Shown piece after piece: positions 5,052-51,654 of a stretch of 54,615 bases of DNA; positions within the stretch are counted from its first letter, which is position 1, and each line of letters starts with the position of its first letter. The notes under the pieces were generated by a model. That model saw only the letters and a program-made list of their open reading frames with translations, had not been told where the DNA came from and searched no databases. Source of the stretch: Patescibacteria group bacterium. GTDB lineage: Bacteria > Patescibacteriota > Patescibacteriia > Patescibacteriales > VMTK01. The DNA lies in NCBI GenBank assembly GCA_018896595.1, contig JAHIME010000003.1:1-54615 (forward strand). Direction: 5' to 3'. The position numbers were made by a program, and so were the translations under genes.

Positions 5052-5855
5052 TTACAAAAAAGTAAGTACTTCACACCCTTTCTCTGTAACCACGACGGTG
5101 TGTTCAAAATGGGCGCTTAAACCGCCGTCGGCAGTTAATATGGTAAGTCCGTCTCTGCCGGTTTTAATTTTCCAGCCCCCCGCGTTAACCATGGGCTCTA
5201 TGGCTATAGTCATGCCCGGTTTTAAAATAATATTTTCTCCCGAGCGCTCGGAACCATCCGAAATTTCATAGTTGGGCACTTGCGGCTCTTCATGCACGGC
5301 CGTGCCGACGCCATGGCCGACCAGCTCGCGCACCACGGAAAAACCCTGCTTTTCAACATATTGCCGGATCGCCCTGCCGATATCATTTAAAGTATTGCCC
5401 GGCTTAACTTGTTTAATGGCCAGCTCCAAGGATTTTTTTGTTACATTGATTAATTTTTTCGCCGGCTTGCTAATTTTGCCTATCGCCGCGGTAACCGCCA
5501 TATCGGTGTAATAACCGCGCGTATTTTTCCCATAGGGGTATTCCATGCCTAAATCCAGGCCGATTATATCGCCTTGATTTAATTCGCGCGGCGGCAAAGC
5601 CGGAGCATGAACTACTTCGTTATTTATTGAAACGCATAAAGCGGTGGGAAAAGCGCGCGCGTCGCGCATTGACTTATAGCCCTTGAAAGAAGGCCTGCCT
5701 CCCGCGGCTTTAATCAAATCGCAAGCCGTTTTTTCCAAATGGCCCGTGGTCGCGCCCGGCTTCGCCGCGATAGCTACTTGTTTTAAAATTTCCGCTAAAA
5801 TCCTGCCGCCGCGGCGCATTATTTCAATTTCTTTTTCCGTTTTAATTATTATCAT
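5052..5855 (-). CDS. map: methionine aminopeptidase type I
   Basis: 267 aa with the typical EIEIMRRGGRI..., DIIGLDLG and HGVG...HEEP motifs. Confidence 0.93.
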   Translation of the reverse strand: MIIIKTEKEIEIMRRGGRILAEILKQVAIAAKPGATTGHLEKTACDLIKAAGGRPSFKGYKSMRDARAFPTALCVSINNEVVHAPALPPRELNQGDIIGLDLGMEYPYGKNTRGYYTDMAVTAAIGKISKPAKKLINVTKKSLELAIKQVKPGNTLNDIGRAIRQYVEKQGFSVVRELVGHGVGTAVHEEPQVPNYEISDGSERSGENIILKPGMTIAIEPMVNAGGWKIKTGRDGLTILTADGGLSAHFEHTVVVTEKGCEVLTFL

Positions 5856-6543
5856 ACATCGCTCTTTCCGCTAACTCTTTTATAATATTATTTTGAACTT
5901 GATTAATATTTTGTTCCCCGTCTATTTCAATCAACTTATCACTTTTCTCAAAATAATCAAGCAGGGGCTTTATTTTTTGATGATATAATTTTAATCTATC
6001 GGCAATCAATTTCGGCTTGTCATCATGCCTGATATATAATTTCTTGCCGCACAAATCGCAAAGACCGCTCTTTTTCGGCGGATTGTATATTAAATGGTAA
6101 GCGGCGCCGCAGTCGCAAACTCTTCTGCCGCCCAGCCGGCGCTTTACTTCCTTGTCGCTCACATTAATTAAAATCGCGCGAACATAATCTTGCCTGCCTT
6201 GCCTGCAGGCAGGCTTGCCGGCAATTTTTTCCAATTTTTTAATTAAAAAATCAAGCTGCGCCCTTTTTCTGGGGTAGCCGTCAAAAACGATTCCCGCCCG
6301 AGCGTCAAATCTTTTAAAGCATTTGAGAATAATTTTTTCAATAATTTCGTCGGGAACTAATTTGCCGGAATCTATAATCGGCTTTATTTTCCTGCCTATC
6401 GCCGTATTTGAATCTTCCTCGTGCCTTAATAATTCTCCCGGCGAAACAACGGGAAGATTTAATTTCTTGGCCAGCATATCGGCCTGCGTACCTTTGCCTG
6501 AACCGGGAGGGCCAAAAAAGATGAGAAATGTTTTTTGAGACAT
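5842..6543 (-). CDS. adk: adenylate kinase (zinc-lid type)
   Basis: P-loop GPPGSGKGTQ and lid CDCG...CDLCG. Overlaps the map start by 14 nt. Confidence 0.95.
   Translation of the reverse strand: MSQKTFLIFFGPPGSGKGTQADMLAKKLNLPVVSPGELLRHEEDSNTAIGRKIKPIIDSGKLVPDEIIEKIILKCFKRFDARAGIVFDGYPRKRAQLDFLIKKLEKIAGKPACRQGRQDYVRAILINVSDKEVKRRLGGRRVCDCGAAYHLIYNPPKKSGLCDLCGKKLYIRHDDKPKLIADRLKLYHQKIKPLLDYFEKSDKLIEIDGEQNINQVQNNIIKELAERAMYDNN
6192..6214. repeat. 23-nt GC-rich hairpin element inside adk
   Basis: GCCTGCC TTGCCTGCA GGCAGGC. It matches 14817-14839 in rplX at 22 of 23 positions. Confidence 0.85.
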
Positions 6544-8544: not shown

Positions 8545-9996
8545 TTACCGGAATCTGATTTTTTGGGCTATGGCTAATTTACCCGCGCTTAACTTGCCGG
8601 CCGGAGACAAAAATTCGCTCTTATTCTGTATTCTTTGAGCCATGCCGTAGCCCAATACCAATATTAATTCAAGCTCTTCCGTTATGTTCCTGACCGTCTT
8701 GCTGTTTAGGCCGACCCCGCCCTCTTTAAAGGGTTTGTCCAAAAAATTATAAAAATCAACCTTGCTTAAGCCGCGAAATAAGCGCTCTTCCACGGCTTGC
8801 TTAATCCGCTCCATCGCGGTTTTGTCCAAATCATTGTAATAATCTCTATAGCAGGTATTTAACAAATAATAAGTTAATTTTTCCGACTTTTCCTCATCGG
8901 TTATTTTTTTATGGCCCGCTTGCTCATCCTTGCGCTGATGGCCTTTTCTGTAAAGATAAAAAGCCATTCTGATTTTTCTGTTAATCCTTCTTGTTATGTT
9001 TTCAGCGGTTCGCCTGTCAAAACCGACTCCCCCTTCCTGGTACGGCCGATTTAAAGTTTCTAAAAATTGCTCATGCGAAATAGTATTTAATAATTTCCTG
9101 TAAATAATTTCTTCAAATACTTTTTCTTCCTCCATGTTGCGATTGGTAATAAAATGATGGGCGAATAATTTGGCTTTATAAGGCATGATAATCACATTGA
9201 TTTGTTCCTGGGTCAACCCTTGATAAGCCCGCATTAAATCTTCTATTTCCGCCGTCGGCGCTTTTTTAATAATCTCGCTCTGCCCGGCTCTTAATTTATG
9301 CCTGTCGCGATTAACCGTTTCCCTGACAATCATTCCGTCTTTCATATAAAAAATTCTGTCGCCAAACGCCAAATTTTCCGGATTGTGGGTAACTAAAATA
9401 ATCGTCTTTTTTTCTTTCTCGTTAAGATCTTTTAAAATTTCCAAAACATTTTTCGCCGATACCGAATCTAAATTGCCAATCGGCTCATCGGCTAAAATAA
9501 TATCCGGATTATTGACAATTGACCTGGCGATGCCGATTCTTTGCTGCTGGCCGCCGGACAATTCCATGGGAATTTTTTTTGCCTGCTTTATAATGCCGAA
9601 ACGCTCCAGCAATTCAAATGATTTCTTTTCCCTTTCTTTCTTGCCGATGTTTAAAAAGACCTGGGGCAAAGCGACATTATCCAAAACCGACAAGCTGTTG
9701 ATTAAATTATACGCCTGAAAAATCATGCCGATTTTTTCGCGGTGATACTGGGCGAATTCTTTCGCGTTCATCTTGGTTAAATCCTTTTCCGCGACTATAA
9801 TAATGCCTTCATCAGGCGTTTCCAGCCCTGAAATTACATTAAGCAAAGTTGATTTGCCGCATCCGGAAGGCCCGAAAAAAATAATGTATTCTTCAGGGTA
9901 TATTTCCAAATTGATATTTATCAGCGCCTGAAATTCATTATCTTTGCCTTTGTTATATACAAAATTCAAATTTTTAGCTTTAATTAGCGGCTGCAT
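8545..9996 (-). CDS. ABC transporter ATP-binding protein (MacB/LolD/FtsE-like) with a ~255-aa C-terminal extension
   Basis: Walker A GPSGCGKST, signature LSGGQQQR and Walker B ILADEP. The extension carries two copies of a ~45-aa motif (P[YF][QK]EGGVG...T..NIT). Confidence 0.9.
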   Translation of the reverse strand: MQPLIKAKNLNFVYNKGKDNEFQALININLEIYPEEYIIFFGPSGCGKSTLLNVISGLETPDEGIIIVAEKDLTKMNAKEFAQYHREKIGMIFQAYNLINSLSVLDNVALPQVFLNIGKKEREKKSFELLERFGIIKQAKKIPMELSGGQQQRIGIARSIVNNPDIILADEPIGNLDSVSAKNVLEILKDLNEKEKKTIILVTHNPENLAFGDRIFYMKDGMIVRETVNRDRHKLRAGQSEIIKKAPTAEIEDLMRAYQGLTQEQINVIIMPYKAKLFAHHFITNRNMEEEKVFEEIIYRKLLNTISHEQFLETLNRPYQEGGVGFDRRTAENITRRINRKIRMAFYLYRKGHQRKDEQAGHKKITDEEKSEKLTYYLLNTCYRDYYNDLDKTAMERIKQAVEERLFRGLSKVDFYNFLDKPFKEGGVGLNSKTVRNITEELELILVLGYGMAQRIQNKSEFLSPAGKLSAGKLAIAQKIRFR

Positions 9997-10099: not shown

Positions 10100-10136
10100 A
10101 CTAAATCAAAAATCCAAAATCGCAAATCAAAAATCT

Positions 10137-11906: not shown

Positions 11907-12527
11907 CTATTTTTGTTCCCCGATTTTTTGATCCGCCTTTTCATTCTTTTCCACTTTCTTCAATCTCTTCAGCGCTTCAATCGCGCACTTTACATTGTTA
12001 ACCTTATTGTTTGTGCCCAATATCTTGCTGGTAATATTTTTAATTCCGGATAATTCAATAATAATTCTCACGGCTCCGCCCGCGATAATGCCTCTGCCCT
12101 TGCGGGCCGGTTTGAACAAAATTTCCGCCGCGCCGTATTTTTGCCTGATTTCATGCGGGATGGTGTCATTTACGATTGGAACTTCAATAATATTTTTTTT
12201 GGCCCTATTAACGGCTTTGGTGACAGCATTGGTAACATCAGCGCCTTTAGCCAGCCCAATGGCCGCTTTGCCTTTTTTATTGCCGATTGCCACGCAAGCT
12301 CTGAATCTCATTCTTTTTCCGCCTGCCATAACGCGAGTTACTCTCGCGATATCTATGATTCTTTGTTCAAATTCTTCCGGTATTTGTTCGCTTCTATTTC
12401 TAAAGCCGCCTCTTTTACCGCCCCTTGAAGCCCCTTTATTCGCTTCAGCCGGTTTTGATTGCATTTTATTTTGTTCTGTCATATATTTAAACTGTTGAAT
12501 AATTAAATTTACCTCCTCCATTGTCAT
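11907..12527 (-). CDS. rpsE: 30S ribosomal protein S5
   Basis: RVTRVMAGGKRMRFRACVAIGNKKG core. The start is ambiguous: ATGs at 12527, 12521 and 12482, and the longest ORF begins inside the palindromic element. Confidence 0.9.
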   Translation of the reverse strand: MTMEEVNLIIQQFKYMTEQNKMQSKPAEANKGASRGGKRGGFRNRSEQIPEEFEQRIIDIARVTRVMAGGKRMRFRACVAIGNKKGKAAIGLAKGADVTNAVTKAVNRAKKNIIEVPIVNDTIPHEIRQKYGAAEILFKPARKGRGIIAGGAVRIIIELSGIKNITSKILGTNNKVNNVKCAIEALKRLKKVEKNEKADQKIGEQK

Positions 12528-12616
12528 TCCCGCGAAAGCGGGAATCCAGATTTTACTCGCTTAACCCCTGGATTCCCCACCCGCTTTCGCGAGTGCTAAA
12601 GGCCGCGGGAATGACA
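12523..12616. repeat. nested palindromic intergenic element
   Basis: GTCATTCCCGCG (12523-12534) pairs with CGCGGGAATGAC (12605-12616). CGCGAAAGCGGG (12531-12542) pairs with CCCGCTTTCGCG (12580-12591). GGAATCCAG (12541-12549) pairs with CTGGATTCC (12568-12576). Confidence 0.8.
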
Positions 12617-14720: not shown

Positions 14721-14762
14721 AATTATGATTAAAATTTTAAAAATTAAAAATTAAAAATTTAT

Positions 14763-15134
14763 TTATATTACCCCCTTACACTTCACGCATACCCTGACTT
14801 TTTTCTTTTCCTTTTTGCCTGCCTTGCCGGCAGGCAGGCCTTGTTCGGAAATTGCGGAAGCTGCTTTTGTTACTTCCATATATTTAAATCCTATTCTCGC
14901 CGACTTATTGCATTTAGGGCAGACCAACATCATATTCGATAAATCCATTGGCGCGGGAAACTCAATTCTCTGGCCTTTTTCTCCCTGCTTTCTCGGCCGC
15001 ATATGTTTAATCAGCAAATTCAGACCCTCAATACTGGCTTTATTTCGCGACGGAAAAATCTGCAAAACTTTTCCGGTCTTGCCCTTGTCTTTACCCGCTA
15101 TAATTTTTACTTTGTCGCCTTTTTTTATTTTCAT
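14763..15134 (-). CDS. rplX: 50S ribosomal protein L24 with a C-terminal CxxC...CxxC extension
   Basis: KOW motif KKGDKVKIIAGKDKGKTGKV; tail CPKC...CVKC. Confidence 0.92.
   Translation of the reverse strand: MKIKKGDKVKIIAGKDKGKTGKVLQIFPSRNKASIEGLNLLIKHMRPRKQGEKGQRIEFPAPMDLSNMMLVCPKCNKSARIGFKYMEVTKAASAISEQGLPAGKAGKKEKKKVRVCVKCKGVI
14817..14839. repeat. 23-nt GC-rich hairpin element inside rplX
   Basis: GCCTGCC TTGCCGGCA GGCAGGC, differing by one nucleotide from the adk copy at 6192-6214. Confidence 0.85.
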
Positions 15135-40350: not shown

Positions 40351-40380
40351 AGAAAACTAAATAATAATTCGTAATAAATT

Positions 40381-40408
40381 AGAAATTAGAAATTAGAAAT
40401 TAGAAATT
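40381..40408. repeat. heptamer tandem repeat AGAAATT x4
   Basis: Lies in the murJ-lepA spacer. It is the reverse complement of the 19422-19456 unit. Confidence 0.9.
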
Positions 40409-42058: not shown

Positions 42059-43657
42059 TTATATCAAACTCCTTCCCGTCATCTCTTTCGGCTTTGGCAA
42101 TCCCATTATTTTCAGCACAGTCGGCGCTATGTCAGACAAAATTCCCTGCGGCTGGACCAAGCTCAAATCGCCGCTGGGCGCGCCGCGGCCGTCTAAATTA
42201 TATCCTTCAAATTGCCTGCCCACAATAATAAAAGGAACCGGATTGGCGGTATGCTCCTTGTCAATCATGCCTGTCTGCATATTAAACATAGACTCGGCGT
42301 TGCCGTGATCCGCTGTCGCTAACACCACCCCGTCTTTCGCTAAAACCGCTTTGACTACTTTGCTTAAACATTTATCAACTGTTTCAACCGCCTTAACCGT
42401 TGCCGGCATATTGCCGGTATGGCCGACCATATCCGAATTGGCGTAATTTACTAAAATAAAGTCATATTTATCGTCTTCAATTTCTTTAAGCAATTTTTGG
42501 GTTACCTCAAGCGCGGACATTTCCGGCCTTTGGTCATAGCTCGCGACTCTCGGCGATGGAACCAGCATATGCTCTTCGCCTTCGCTTTTTTCTTCCCTGC
42601 CGCCGTTGAAGAAATAAGTTACATGGGCGTATTTTTCTGTTTCGGCGATGCGCAATTGCTTTAAACCATGAACGGAGATTATTTCGCCCAAGGCGTTGCT
42701 TAAAATTTCCGGCAGGAAAGCCGCTTCCGCCGGCAATCCTTTTTCATAATCAGTGAAACAAACAAAAAACAAATCGCTTAAATATCGCTTCCGGTTAAAT
42801 TTATCAAATTCCGGCATAATAAAAGTTTTGGTAATCTGCCGCGCCCGATCCGCCCGGAAATTAAAAAATATTACCGCGTCGCCATTTTCAATTTTAGCTA
42901 TCGGCTGGCCGCCTTTAGTTATTACAGTCGGCGTAAACTCTTCATCATATATTTTCTTGCTATAGCTCTCTTCTATCGCCCCCTCGGCGGTTTCGCTTTT
43001 GTTGCCTATGGCTTCAGTCATGGCTAAATAAGCCTTTTCTATCCTATCCCATCTGTTATCCCTGTCCATAGTGTAAAATCTGCCTGAAATGGTGGCGATA
43101 GCGCCAATATTATATTCCGCTAAAAACCGTTCCAAATCCCTGATAAAATTAAGACCGCTGTTATATGGAGCGTCGCGACCGTCCAATATGGCATGAATAA
43201 ACAGCTGCTCAACTTTTTGCTCTTTGGCTAAAACGATTAGCGCTTGCAGATGTTCAATTGACGAATGCACTCCGCCGTTGGAAACTAAGCCCATTAAATG
43301 CAGTTTCGTTCCGCCTGCCCTCGCGTGCTTGCAAGCGTTAATCAGCGCTTTATTTTGATAAAAACTGTTATCAACTATGGCTTTATTAATTCGCGGCAAG
43401 TCTTGATACAATATTCTTCCAAGCCCCATGTTAAGATGGCCGACTTCGCTGTTGCCGGATTCTCCCCACGGCAAACCGACGGCCTCGCCAGAAGCCCGAA
43501 GAACCATGGAAGGGTATCTTACAATCAGCTGATCCATAACCGGAGTATCGGCCTGGCTGATCGCGTTGCCGGTAAACGGCTGGCTTATCCCCCAGCCGTC
43601 CAAAATCATGAGTACTACCGGCTTAGGCCGTTTTGTTGGTTGTTGAATGTCTAACAT
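42059..43657 (-). CDS. gpmI: 2,3-bisphosphoglycerate-independent phosphoglycerate mutase (copy 1)
   Basis: ILDGWG, GNSEVGH, DMVGHTG and ADHGN motifs. Confidence 0.93.
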   Translation of the reverse strand: MLDIQQPTKRPKPVVLMILDGWGISQPFTGNAISQADTPVMDQLIVRYPSMVLRASGEAVGLPWGESGNSEVGHLNMGLGRILYQDLPRINKAIVDNSFYQNKALINACKHARAGGTKLHLMGLVSNGGVHSSIEHLQALIVLAKEQKVEQLFIHAILDGRDAPYNSGLNFIRDLERFLAEYNIGAIATISGRFYTMDRDNRWDRIEKAYLAMTEAIGNKSETAEGAIEESYSKKIYDEEFTPTVITKGGQPIAKIENGDAVIFFNFRADRARQITKTFIMPEFDKFNRKRYLSDLFFVCFTDYEKGLPAEAAFLPEILSNALGEIISVHGLKQLRIAETEKYAHVTYFFNGGREEKSEGEEHMLVPSPRVASYDQRPEMSALEVTQKLLKEIEDDKYDFILVNYANSDMVGHTGNMPATVKAVETVDKCLSKVVKAVLAKDGVVLATADHGNAESMFNMQTGMIDKEHTANPVPFIIVGRQFEGYNLDGRGAPSGDLSLVQPQGILSDIAPTVLKIMGLPKPKEMTGRSLI

Positions 43658-50427: not shown

Positions 50428-51654
50428 TTACTTTAATTCCCCTAACACAACCTCAACCTCTTTTTTATCGCCATCGCGCGAATACGCAATCATTACTTTA
50501 TCGCCGGCAATATACTGCCCTATCACGTCGTTTAGCTTATTGTCCTTGTTAATTTCAATATTATCAATCGCGATTATAATATCGCCCTCTTTTAAGCCGG
50601 CTTTGTCGGCCGCGCCGCCCTTAACTATCGCCGCGCCCTGCTTATTTTTGTATATAACCGCGCCCTTGTTAGATTCGCTTTCCTGGACTGAATTTAAAAC
50701 AGGCGCCTTGACCAAGCCGGACAAATCAACATAGTTAACTCCCAAACTTGCCCGTTTGATTTCTTTATTTTTTAACAAGCTCTTAATCGGCGCCGCGAAT
50801 TGGCTTGCCGGCATGATTTTCCCTTGATTATCAATCAATCCGGCGACTTCGCCCGCCAAATTAAGCAAAAACGAACCATTGAATTTTTCGCTCGGCTCAT
50901 CAACTAAAAATATTTCGCCCGAAATTCCGTCGCTGGAATTGACTATGGCTTGATCCTTGTCGCTTTCCATCGCGGAAACTACGCTCAGCCAGCTTGCTCC
51001 GTCCCAATTAACCGCCACGACCGATTGTCCTCTCGCGATCCCGCCTCGGCCGATAAAACTTCTAACGGAAAAATCCTTCGTCTCTACATGCAAAAAATTA
51101 AATTTAGCCAACTTATCCCGGATAATTTTATCCACCGCGTAAACCTTGCCGTCTTTGGTTATTACCGCGTAATTCTCTAAAAAATTCTCTTCGCCAACGG
51201 CTCCGGCCCGTCCCGCTTCTTGCGGGGCCTGCTCCATTTCAGCCGGCAAGAAATTAGTCGCGATCCAGCCGTCGCTGGTGATAATAATGCCCTGCCCAAC
51301 CTCCTGATTGACTTGGTAATAATCGCTTAAATTAAAATTATCGGCCTTCTCGCTTTTCGGCAATGATTTTTTAAATATCCCGACCAAACTCATACTGGCG
51401 GAATTTATGGTTTCTTGCGCTTTCGTGTCCTGTTCAACAATGACTTTTTTCGCGTCTCTTATGATTAAATTTGAACCATTATAATTCCCGTTGGAAAAAT
51501 TGATTTCGCCGAAAAAAGGAATGTCGTAAAAACTGTCAATCAAATAAGTTCTCGCGGCTAATCCACCCGCTATTCCGCTAGCCATGCCGAAGACGGTGGC
51601 AATAATTACTATTAACAATATACCGTTTTTTTTATTTTTTTTATTCTCTTCCAT
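50428..51654 (-). CDS. HtrA/DegP-like PDZ protein, apparently lacking the catalytic His and Ser
   Basis: N-terminal TM, a trypsin-like fold segment (GQGIIITSDGWIATN..., ...FLLNLAGEVAGLI...) and a C-terminal PDZ domain (GGAADKAGLKEGDIIIAIDN). Confidence 0.7.
   Translation of the reverse strand: MEENKKNKKNGILLIVIIATVFGMASGIAGGLAARTYLIDSFYDIPFFGEINFSNGNYNGSNLIIRDAKKVIVEQDTKAQETINSASMSLVGIFKKSLPKSEKADNFNLSDYYQVNQEVGQGIIITSDGWIATNFLPAEMEQAPQEAGRAGAVGEENFLENYAVITKDGKVYAVDKIIRDKLAKFNFLHVETKDFSVRSFIGRGGIARGQSVVAVNWDGASWLSVVSAMESDKDQAIVNSSDGISGEIFLVDEPSEKFNGSFLLNLAGEVAGLIDNQGKIMPASQFAAPIKSLLKNKEIKRASLGVNYVDLSGLVKAPVLNSVQESESNKGAVIYKNKQGAAIVKGGAADKAGLKEGDIIIAIDNIEINKDNKLNDVIGQYIAGDKVMIAYSRDGDKKEVEVVLGELK

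What the first reader, a model, noticed from the sequence alone, without database searches (positions are those of the whole stretch)
6192..6214. The same 23-nt GC-rich hairpin sits inside two unrelated essential genes (adk and rplX), in different reading frames
adk carries GCCTGCC-TTGCCTGCA-GGCAGGC (6192-6214). rplX carries GCCTGCC-TTGCCGGCA-GGCAGGC (14817-14839). The two agree at 22 of 23 nt, lie in the same orientation, and each has a 7-bp stem. In adk the element is read as ..K PACRQGRQ D.. and in rplX as ..GLPAGKAG.., a one-nucleotide frame offset, so the conserved unit is the DNA or RNA rather than a peptide. Deleting PACRQGRQ from Adk restores the canonical GK..DYV spacing seen in B. 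subtilis Adk (GKPIDYV).

Weaker GC-rich imperfect palindromes also fall in coding loops at 51205-51232 (HtrA-like, QEAGRAGAVG), 42170-42189 (gpmI copy 1, GRGAPSG) and 8590-8605 (ABC ATPase tail, SPAGK).
Basis: seen in the sequence. Interest (0 to 1): 0.6.

Follow-up and report, generated by a model that had tools for sequence, protein, structure and literature searches.

The report
Tiny 21-base hairpin inserted in genes
The matching GC-rich hairpin in the adenylate kinase and ribosomal protein L24 genes is a copy of a 21-base palindromic DNA module that lands in frame inside genes. Close relatives carry or lack exactly these 21 bases, and the same sequence recurs letter for letter in bacteria of many phyla, with no known enzyme to move it.

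Summary
Window 6192-6214 (adk) and 14817-14839 (rplX) agree at 22 of 23 bases, against about 1e-5 copies expected by chance.

The real unit is 21 nt: CCTGCCT-TGCCGGC-AGGCAGG, a 7-bp stem with a 7-nt loop. It is 3x7 nt long and has no stop codon in any of the six frames, so it reads as seven extra residues (PACRQGR in Adk, LPAGKAG in L24), each in a variable loop.

Near-identical relatives have the same genes with and without exactly these 21 nt. The presence/absence pattern does not follow sequence similarity, which implies either repeated insertion at the same site or precise loss.

The family has 8 copies in this genome, mostly inside genes and in several frames and orientations. It occurs in 19 of 41 genomes of the order and letter-perfect in at least 120 stretches from many phyla. 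A Bacteroidota MAG has 121 copies and a cultured Arenibacter has 34.

Copy number does not track Y1 (RAYT/IS200) transposases, there is no regular target duplication, and no strand bias was detected. About a tenth of copies sit inside 7-nt tandem arrays.

Best reading: a very small selfish insertion module, RPE/REP-like in behaviour, with an unknown mobilising mechanism.

The parts
6193..6213 (+). 21-nt unit copy in adk, CCTGCCTTGCCTGCAGGCAGG (loop G->T variant). It is read on the - strand as PACRQGR, Adk residues 111-117.
   Evidence: Empty alleles GGCAA|GCAAGAT in L234 and L236, and a filled allele in L235. It lies in a coil between helix 94-108 and strand 121-127, where pLDDT is 59 against an overall mean of 88, and it falls in a gap in alignments to solved Adk structures.
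14818..14838 (+). 21-nt unit copy in rplX, canonical CCTGCCTTGCCGGCAGGCAGG. It is read on the - strand as (G)LPAGKA(G), between the two CxxC pairs of the L24 C-terminal extension.
   Evidence: It is the only indel in 3.3 kb against the 99.07%-identical G001 locus. It is absent from all other same-order relatives aligned and present, diverged, in L233.
5842..6543 (-). adk, the host gene of the first copy.
   Evidence: ORF. PDB adenylate kinases match at E 3e-47. Orthologues in 36 of 41 relatives.
14763..15134 (-). rplX (ribosomal protein L24), the host gene of the second copy.
   Evidence: ORF. Homologues carry PF17136 and PF00467. It sits in the ribosomal protein operon.

Best explanation
The 23-nt match marks two copies of a 21-nt GC-rich hairpin module, CCTGCCT-TGCCGGC-AGGCAGG, with a 7-bp stem and a 7-nt loop. 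The stem is conserved across copies and the loop varies.

It behaves as selfish, insertional DNA. It appears as a discrete 21-nt block at otherwise unrelated sites: inside genes, between genes, inside other repeats, in a group II intron and in phage contigs. Because it is 3x7 nt long and stop-free in all six frames, a copy landing in a tolerant protein loop neither breaks nor shifts the frame. It should then simply be translated as seven small or charged residues (PACRQGR in Adk, LPAGKAG in L24).

Shown here:
- the block nature of the insert;
- exact 21-nt presence/absence among close relatives;
- the multi-copy, multi-frame, cross-phylum distribution;
- the loop location in Adk and the variable-linker location in L24.

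Inferred:
- It is moved, or copied, by a trans-acting activity that recognises the hairpin or its inverted heptamers.
- It inserts without a regular target duplication, preferentially between T(C/G) and a pyrimidine (for example ATC^C, TTG^CTTG).
- Either it can be lost precisely again or the same site is hit repeatedly.

The enzyme is unknown. It is not a genome-resident RAYT/IS200-type Y1 transposase.
For: - **Chance excluded:**
- **rplX:** G001 is 99.07% identical over 3348 nt, and its only indel is this 21 nt. A roughly 90%-identical relative (L233) is filled at the same site with a diverged unit. All other relatives are empty.
- **adk:** filled in G000, G001 and L235 (86.5% identity). It is empty in the closer L234 (91%) and L236 (89%), and the gap is exactly 21 nt.
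- **Third and fourth filled/empty pairs:** the C71 paralogues, and a Bacteroidota repeat family with 19 filled and 2 empty copies, again differing by exactly 21 nt.
- **Copies in this genome:** 8 copies, in prmC, a PSP1-domain gene, a GT4 glycosyltransferase and others.
- **Spread:** 19 of 41 genomes of the order with 0 reversed-pattern controls; at least 120 exact stretches in many phyla, including cultured isolates; 121, 53, 34 and 14 copies in four Bacteroidota genomes; 12 viral contigs.
- **Unrelated flanks:** flanks of 123 copies show no similarity apart from +1 = pyrimidine in 114 of 123 and -2 = T in 65 of 123.
- **Frames:** all six frame/orientation combinations are used in long ORFs, skewed towards LPAGKA at 23 of 57. 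All six frames are stop-free.
- **Location in Adk:** the insert lies in a low-confidence coil and in a gap relative to solved structures.
Against: - No mobilising enzyme was found. Y1_Tnp counts do not correlate with copy number (rho 0.008), and G036 has 13 copies with no Y1 gene.
- No consistent target duplication and no significant orientation bias against GC skew were seen, so the usual signatures of a defined transposition pathway are missing.
- Presence/absence could partly reflect hairpin-promoted deletion or allelic recombination rather than new insertion.
- The adk target already contained CTTGCCGGCA, which equals unit positions 6-15. That hints at homology-guided copying.
Confidence: 0.62

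Rival explanations
1. It is an ordinary REP/REPIN family, mobilised as single-stranded hairpin DNA by a REP-associated tyrosine (Y1, HUH) transposase. Insertion would occur 3' of a short target word without target duplication, and excision would be precise.
For: The size, hairpin shape and multi-copy dispersal fit. Exact insertion without a target duplication, and possible precise loss, also fit. There is a short left-flank preference (ATC in 18 of 123 copies; CAAG^ in the reverse orientation at three filled/empty sites). The genome has a RAYT-like gene (C40) flanked by arrays of a different REP, so the system type exists here. The T-loop variant contains GTAG.
Against: Y1_Tnp presence and count do not track unit copies across 41 genomes (rho 0.008; Fisher p 0.74). 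G036 (99% complete, 13 copies) and G043 (14 copies) have no Y1 gene, while G009 has 12 Y1 matches and no copies. Only 2 of 14 Y1 loci in the six genomes queried (12 of them in Bacteroidota) have a unit-like hairpin within 1.5 kb. The G000 RAYT is flanked by another repeat. No replication-strand bias was detected. Copies are mostly singlets.
Confidence: 0.12
2. No dedicated enzyme is involved. The unit spreads by microhomology-guided templated repair or gene conversion from existing copies, within a genome or from taken-up DNA, and is lost by hairpin-promoted replication slippage.
For: Three filled/empty sites share the context CAAG^ (mRNA sense), which resembles the unit's own GGCAAGG. The adk target carried a 10-nt match to the unit core. 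The adk and rplX copies share flank bases beyond the 21 nt. A substitution sits right next to the junction in rplX and in C71. Short direct repeats spaced 21 nt apart exist in adk and could mediate loss (sequence).
Against: Most of the 123 copies have flanks with no resemblance to the unit. Boundaries are sharp at the same 21 nt in very different contexts. Letter-perfect identity across phyla needs an efficient copying route.
Confidence: 0.12
3. The unit is a minimal core site for a site-specific (tyrosine-type) recombinase or another dimeric DNA-binding protein: two inverted 7-bp binding sites around a 7-bp spacer. It disperses as a by-product of that protein's activity.
For: The 7-7-7 architecture has conserved arms and a variable centre. 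Tandem arrays with a period of exactly 21 occur (L156; L301). Units are associated with 7-nt flanking direct repeats and with no other length (10 of 123).
Against: Conservative recombination does not explain insertion of a bare 21-nt block. No recombinase was found next to copies. The C71 copies turned out to lie in gene fragments, not in recognisable recombination sites.
Confidence: 0.07
4. The hairpins are functional in place, for example as an mRNA structure that pauses translation or stabilises the transcript, and were selected in adk and rplX.
For: The RNA hairpins are predicted to be stable (-16.7 and -16.8 kcal/mol). The stem is conserved across copies.
Against: Near-identical relatives do without them. 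Positions, frames and orientations are scattered, including intergenic DNA, other repeats, an intron and phages. No Rfam family matches. Diverged copies lose pairing rather than covary (L233; variants).
Confidence: 0.04
5. Chance or compositional convergence of G/A/P-rich linkers, or an assembly artefact.
For: The genome is very rich in GC words such as GCCGGC, and GKAGKK-like coding words occur elsewhere.
Against: The expected count is 1.6e-5. The reversed-pattern control gave 0 matches in all 46 genomes pattern-searched. The same inserts appear at the same sites in independent assemblies (G001, GCA_017973895.1). Six reading frames are used.
Confidence: 0.01

Closest known systems
Rickettsia palindromic elements (RPEs; Ogata et al. 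2000, 2002, as summarised in PMC10969869)
   Same: Palindromic repeats inserted in frame into unrelated housekeeping genes of a small, AT-rich genome. They are read through as extra peptide in positions compatible with the fold, and there is no associated transposase.
   Different: RPEs are about 100-150 bp, confined to Rickettsia, and each family encodes one conserved peptide. This unit is 21 nt, is read in all six frames, and occurs letter-perfect across phyla.
REP/REPIN elements with RAYT transposases (Nunvar 2010; Bertels & Rainey 2011, PMC3116915)
   Same: Short GC-rich hairpin repeats of 20-40 nt in many copies. They are sometimes found in tandem or inverted pairs and nested in other repeats. 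Insertion occurs without target duplication.
   Different: REPs are defined as extragenic, flank a cognate RAYT and usually act as doublets (PMC3116915). Here most Patescibacteria copies are intragenic singlets, and no RAYT linkage was found.
Small dispersed repeats (SDR) of heterocystous cyanobacteria (Elhai et al. 2008; recalled from memory, cited in PMC3116915; paper not held)
   Same: Very small (about 20-30 nt) dispersed repeats that nest in other repeats and have no known mobilising enzyme.
   Different: SDRs are lineage-restricted as far as I recall. Their sequence, in-frame coding behaviour and cross-phylum identity could not be compared here.
[quoted passage not shown]
   Same: Non-autonomous, with terminal inverted repeats, and dispersed in many copies. 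They sometimes create in-frame fusions.
   Different: MITEs are typically over 50 bp, have target-site duplications and derive from a recognisable IS. This unit has no regular duplication and no parent IS or paired solo ends.
Mobile GC clusters and double-hairpin elements of fungal mitochondrial DNA (recalled from memory)
   Same: GC-rich palindromic modules scattered in an AT-rich genome. Some are optional insertions inside coding sequence, and their mechanism is unknown.
   Different: They are organellar, longer and lineage-specific. They were not compared by sequence here.

Membership tests
REP/REPIN-RAYT | Short repeated imperfect palindrome in many copies | tested here: met
   8 copies in G000; up to 121 in a Bacteroidota genome.
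REP/REPIN-RAYT | Extragenic location | tested here: not met
   In G000 most copies lie inside Pfam-supported genes (adk, rplX, prmC, PSP1, GT4). 57 of 108 copies lie in ORFs of at least 150 aa.
REP/REPIN-RAYT | Copies flank, and co-occur with, a cognate RAYT (Y1 transposase) | tested here: not met
   Spearman rho 0.008 over 41 genomes. G036 has 13 copies and no Y1 gene, and G043 has 14 copies and none. Y1 loci are not flanked by the unit. The G000 RAYT is flanked by a different repeat.
REP/REPIN-RAYT | Organised mainly as inverted doublets (REPINs) | tested here: not met
   G000 copies are singlets. Pairs are seen only occasionally (L156, L301).
REP/REPIN-RAYT | Conserved 5' tag such as GTAG or CGTC | tested here: inconclusive
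   The canonical loop lacks it. The T-loop variant reads GGTAGGCAGG, but the tag is internal rather than 5' of the stem.
Rickettsia palindromic elements | Palindromic repeat inserted in frame in protein-coding genes without disrupting them | tested here: met
   Translation itself was not tested.
Rickettsia palindromic elements | Length about 100-150 bp, with one conserved peptide per family | tested here: not met
   The unit is 21 nt and six reading frames are used.
Rickettsia palindromic elements | Restricted to Rickettsia | tested here: not met
   Found in Patescibacteria, Bacteroidota, Omnitrophota, Planctomycetota and others.
MITE | Terminal inverted repeats | tested here: met
   The 7-bp arms CCTGCCT/AGGCAGG.
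MITE | Target-site duplication of fixed length | tested here: not met
   All four filled/empty comparisons differ by exactly 21 nt. In three of them (adk, rplX, the G044 repeat) the boundary is ambiguous by +/-1 nt, so a 2-bp GC duplication flanking a 19-nt core cannot be excluded; the C71 boundaries are unambiguous. Across all 123 copies, only 10 have a 7-nt flank repeat.
MITE | Derivation from a full-length IS with the same ends | tested here: not met
   No paired solo half-sites in G000. This was not searched exhaustively elsewhere.
IS200/IS605-type single-strand transposition (mechanism) | Orientation bias relative to replication (lagging-strand template) | tested here: inconclusive
   61 versus 82 copies by the sign of local GC skew, p=0.09. 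Local skew is a noisy proxy.
Small dispersed repeats (cyanobacteria) | Sequence and behaviour as described by Elhai et al. 2008 | not testable with these tools
   The paper is not held, so the comparison rests on memory.

The most novel reading that the evidence does not exclude
The 21-nt unit is one of the smallest mobile DNA modules known. It would be moved across phyla by a still unidentified activity that works in steps of seven nucleotides and is neither a RAYT nor a classical transposase. The same activity would generate the unusually abundant 7-nt tandem arrays, which often add +21 nt, in frame, inside genes and in which a tenth of the units are embedded. At the prmC loop one genome has the unit, while its relative has an array that appears to be about 21 nt (three heptamers) longer than the ancestral sequence. 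This would be a new insertion mechanism that continually remodels protein loops in small-genome bacteria.
Probability: 0.15. Interest if true: 0.85.

Novelty: new variant of a known kind. Interest (0 to 1): 0.6.

Why it matters
If these 21-nt modules really move, they mark a lower size limit for mobile DNA. They would also be a steady source of seven-residue loop insertions in essential proteins (Adk, L24, PrmC and others) of ultra-small bacteria. This would help explain why such genomes carry many lineage-specific insertions in conserved genes.

The same sequence is present in dozens of copies in cultured Bacteroidota (Arenibacter sp. P308M17, Aequorivita, Marinoscillum, Hyunsoonleella). The mechanism, which cannot be studied in uncultured Patescibacteria, is therefore experimentally approachable.

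For annotation, such inserts should be recognised as elements rather than scored as genuine protein features. They are also useful presence/absence markers among close strains.

Tried and rejected
- **Chance or composition:** rejected.
- **RAYT linkage:** searched for PF01797 in G000, 40 relatives and four Bacteroidota genomes, and inspected the flanks. No link was found.
- **Known RNA family:** the Rfam e-value scan of both window sites and eight other loci found nothing on the unit. The only real hit was a group II intron domain next to one copy.
- **Integron-like attC origin for the C71 copies:** these proved to be gene N-terminal fragments, with a paralogous empty site.
- **A 2-kb element bounded by unit pairs in viral contigs:** this is one phage's terL and HNH genes seen twice, not a transposon.
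- **Parent IS with matching ends:** none in G000.
- **Replication-strand bias:** not significant.
- **Clean empty site for the prmC copy in G001:** the loop is too diverged (76% identity), and it holds a heptamer array instead.
- **Literature:** no paper holds the sequence, no description for Patescibacteria was found, and the SDR paper is not held.
at background distance from the unit.

Full report
**Observation**

Both lie on the + strand, inside genes encoded on the - strand: adk at 5842-6543 and rplX at 14763-15134. Dinucleotide shuffles give no match.

The genome (970 kb, 105 contigs, 40.7% GC; the window is contig C28) is compositionally patchy, and GC-rich words are 7-16 times over-represented. 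I therefore also computed an order-5 Markov expectation for the 21-mer, which is 1.6e-5 copies per genome. Chance is excluded.

**What the unit is**

Orthologue comparison defines the unit.

- *Adk in relatives.* In Adk, G000 and the same-genus G001 carry seven extra residues (PACRQGR) between EKIAGK and QDYV. About 25 same-order relatives lack them.
- *Adk in close relatives.* Among close relatives found in the protein collection, P0122 (86% identity) has the insert, while P0123, P0124 and P0125 (86-88%) read IAGK|QDYV.
- *Adk at DNA level.* The empty alleles L234 and L236 read GGCAA|GCAAGAT. The filled alleles have exactly 21 more nucleotides.
- *rplX.* The G001 locus is 99.07% identical to the window over 3348 nt. 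Its only indel is a 21-nt gap at the hairpin, plus one adjacent substitution. All other relatives aligned lack the insert.
- *C71 paralogues.* A paralogous pair on contig C71 shows the same thing: KTDITV[PASLAGR]KDICEG against KTNITV-KDICEG.
- *Bacteroidota repeat.* A larger repeat family in a Bacteroidota MAG (G044) has 19 copies with the block and 2 without. The difference is again exactly 21 nt, at CCG^CTTG.

The unit consistent with all four comparisons is CCTGCCT-TGCCGGC-AGGCAGG. It has a 7-bp stem and a 7-nt loop. It folds at about -17 kcal/mol as RNA and is free of stop codons in all six frames.

**Dynamics**

Presence and absence do not follow sequence similarity.

- For adk, the filled L235 is the most distant sequence (86.5% to G000). 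The empty L234 and L236 are closer (91% and 89%).
- For rplX, the 99%-identical G001 is empty. A roughly 90%-identical contig (L233) is filled at the same nucleotide position with a unit that has one substitution. L233 comes from the same assembly as L235.

Either the same sites were hit independently, or the unit was lost precisely, or alleles recombined. I cannot separate these. The first two imply site preference or precise removal; the third does not.

**Distribution**

- G000 has eight CCTGCC-N5-12-GGCAGG hairpins.
- Host ORFs include prmC, a PSP1-domain gene, a GT4 glycosyltransferase (two copies) and a membrane protein. The unit occurs in both orientations relative to transcription.
- With up to 3 mismatches, the 23-mer occurs in 19 of 41 genomes of the order. 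Some have up to 13 copies. The reversed-sequence control gives zero everywhere.
They come from many Patescibacteria classes and from Bacteroidota, Omnitrophota, Planctomycetota, Elusimicrobia, Ignavibacteria and others, including cultured isolates.
- Copy numbers reach 121 in a 2.9-Mb Bacteroidota MAG, 53 in a Flavobacteriaceae MAG and 34 in Arenibacter sp. P308M17.
- Across copies the stem is conserved, while the loop varies: TTGCCGGC, TCGCCGGC, TGGCCGGC, TGTCCGG(C/T).
- In G044 the unit is nested in several different larger repeats. It also sits between domains V and VI of a group II intron.
- It occurs in 12 viral contigs.

**Coding behaviour**

Of 108 copies with at most 2 mismatches, 57 lie inside ORFs of 150 aa or more. 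All six frame/orientation combinations are used, with an excess of the LPAGKA reading (23 of 57). This is what DNA-level insertion followed by selection on the peptide would give.

The Adk insert (residues 111-117) falls in a coil between helix 94-108 and strand 121-127. That segment has pLDDT 59, against a mean of 88 for the model. It also falls in a gap relative to solved adenylate kinases.

The same Adk loop carries other, unrelated inserts in other lineages.

The L24 insert lies in the length-variable linker between the two CxxC pairs of the C-terminal extension.

**Mechanism: what was tested**

- *Flanks.* Flanks of 123 cross-phylum copies are unrelated, apart from a pyrimidine at +1 (114 of 123) and T at -2 (65 of 123). 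ATC is the commonest left 3-mer and CTTG the commonest right 4-mer. Three filled/empty sites share G^CTTG, which is CAAG^ in the other orientation.
- *Target duplication.* There is no regular target duplication. However, 10 of 123 copies have exact 7-nt direct repeats on both sides, against 0-1 for lengths 4, 5, 6 and 8. These copies sit in tandem heptamer arrays (CAATTTC, CGAAATC, TTGTTTG and others), often inside coding sequence.
- *Heptamer arrays.* Period-7 arrays are the commonest tandem repeat in G000: 55 arrays with at least 3 copies, against 19 for period 3 and 26 for period 6. At the prmC loop, G000 has the unit, and G001 has a heptamer array that appears to be about 21 nt (three heptamers) longer than the ancestral sequence.
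- *Y1 transposases.* Y1 (RAYT/IS200) genes do not track the unit. The correlation is rho 0.008 over 41 genomes. Genomes with 13 and 14 copies have none, and Y1 loci are not flanked by the unit. The one RAYT-like gene of G000 (C40) is flanked by a different REP.
- *Strand bias.* Orientation relative to local GC skew is not significantly biased (61 versus 82, p=0.09).
- *Other checks.* No Rfam family matches the unit. No paired half-sites suggest a parent IS.

**Conclusion**

The element is best described as a very small selfish insertion module. It behaves like the Rickettsia palindromic elements in being translated in frame, and like REPs in being a dispersed GC hairpin. It fails the defining tests of both families:

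- its size;
- the absence of one conserved peptide per family;
- its occurrence outside Rickettsia;
- its intragenic rather than extragenic location;
- the lack of RAYT linkage.

How it moves is unknown. I favour a trans-acting activity that recognises the hairpin or its inverted heptamers and inserts without duplication. Homology-guided copying and a recombinase core-site origin are live alternatives.

Earlier notes of this scan describe similar tiny hairpin inserts in many Patescibacteria genomes. I used them as leads only.

Noticed in passing
whole genome; window examples 2123-2155, 10103-10135, 14728-14759, 40376-40408: Tandem arrays of 7-nt units (AACTTTG, AAATCAA, ATTAAAA, AAATTAG and others) are the commonest tandem repeat in this roughly 90%-coding genome. 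There are 55 arrays with at least 3 copies and at least 90% identity, against 19 for period 3, 26 for period 6 and 2 for period 9. Lengths peak at 30-34 nt. Many lie inside genes, where only +21 nt keeps the frame.
   Followed up: partly
whole genome; window 12527-12544: Three more abundant hairpin repeat families occur. CCCTCCTCTT..AAGAGGAGGG has 91 copies, often tandem at about 40 nt. TTCCCGC-GAAA/TTTC-GCGGGAA has 35 copies, one of them between rpsE and rplR in the window. CCCCCTTGCGAAGGGGG has 34 copies, one of them inside prmC on C23.
   Followed up: partly
G000 contig C40:1-1000 (locus L094): A RAYT-like Y1 transposase gene of 183 aa (PF01797, 26 bits) is flanked on both sides by tandem copies of a roughly 37-nt hairpin repeat, GGCACAGTCCCTTGCGAGGAGACTGCGCC, which is unrelated to the unit studied.
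   Followed up: partly
L033 (G003 adk); proteins P0129-P0138, P0153, P0170, P0223: The same Adk loop is an insertion hot spot. Other lineages carry different GC-rich inserts of 14 to about 43 residues at this position.
   Followed up: partly
window versus G001 (L007, L037, L095, L096): G001 is 99% identical to the window in the ribosomal protein/adk region, but only 76-78% identical in prmC and a membrane-protein gene. Either this region was recently exchanged or one of the two bins mixes strains.
   Followed up: no
G000 contig C23:5675-6697 (prmC): prmC carries several inserts at once: the 21-nt unit, a CCCCCTTGCGAAGGGGG hairpin (PLAKGG), a CAAGTTT x3.9 heptamer array, and a further GC-rich stretch near the C-terminus.
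   Followed up: no
L277, L278 (Bacteroidota MAG G044): The unit sits directly after domain V of a group II intron (Rfam RF00029, 46.3 bits) in two intron copies.
   Followed up: no
L301, L306 (IMG/VR contigs): In one phage, seen in two contigs, adjacent pairs of the unit lie between terS and terL and after an HNH endonuclease gene. One pair is inverted and one is tandem.
   Followed up: partly
whole genome: Composition is strongly bimodal at the word level. CGGC and GCCG are 4.7x over composition and GCCGGC is 16x (1091 copies), in a 40.7% GC genome.
   Followed up: no
window 14763-15134: L24 of this lineage has a C-terminal extension with two CxxC pairs (CPKC...CVKC), which looks like a zinc ribbon. 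The linker between the pairs is highly length-variable among relatives.
   Followed up: no
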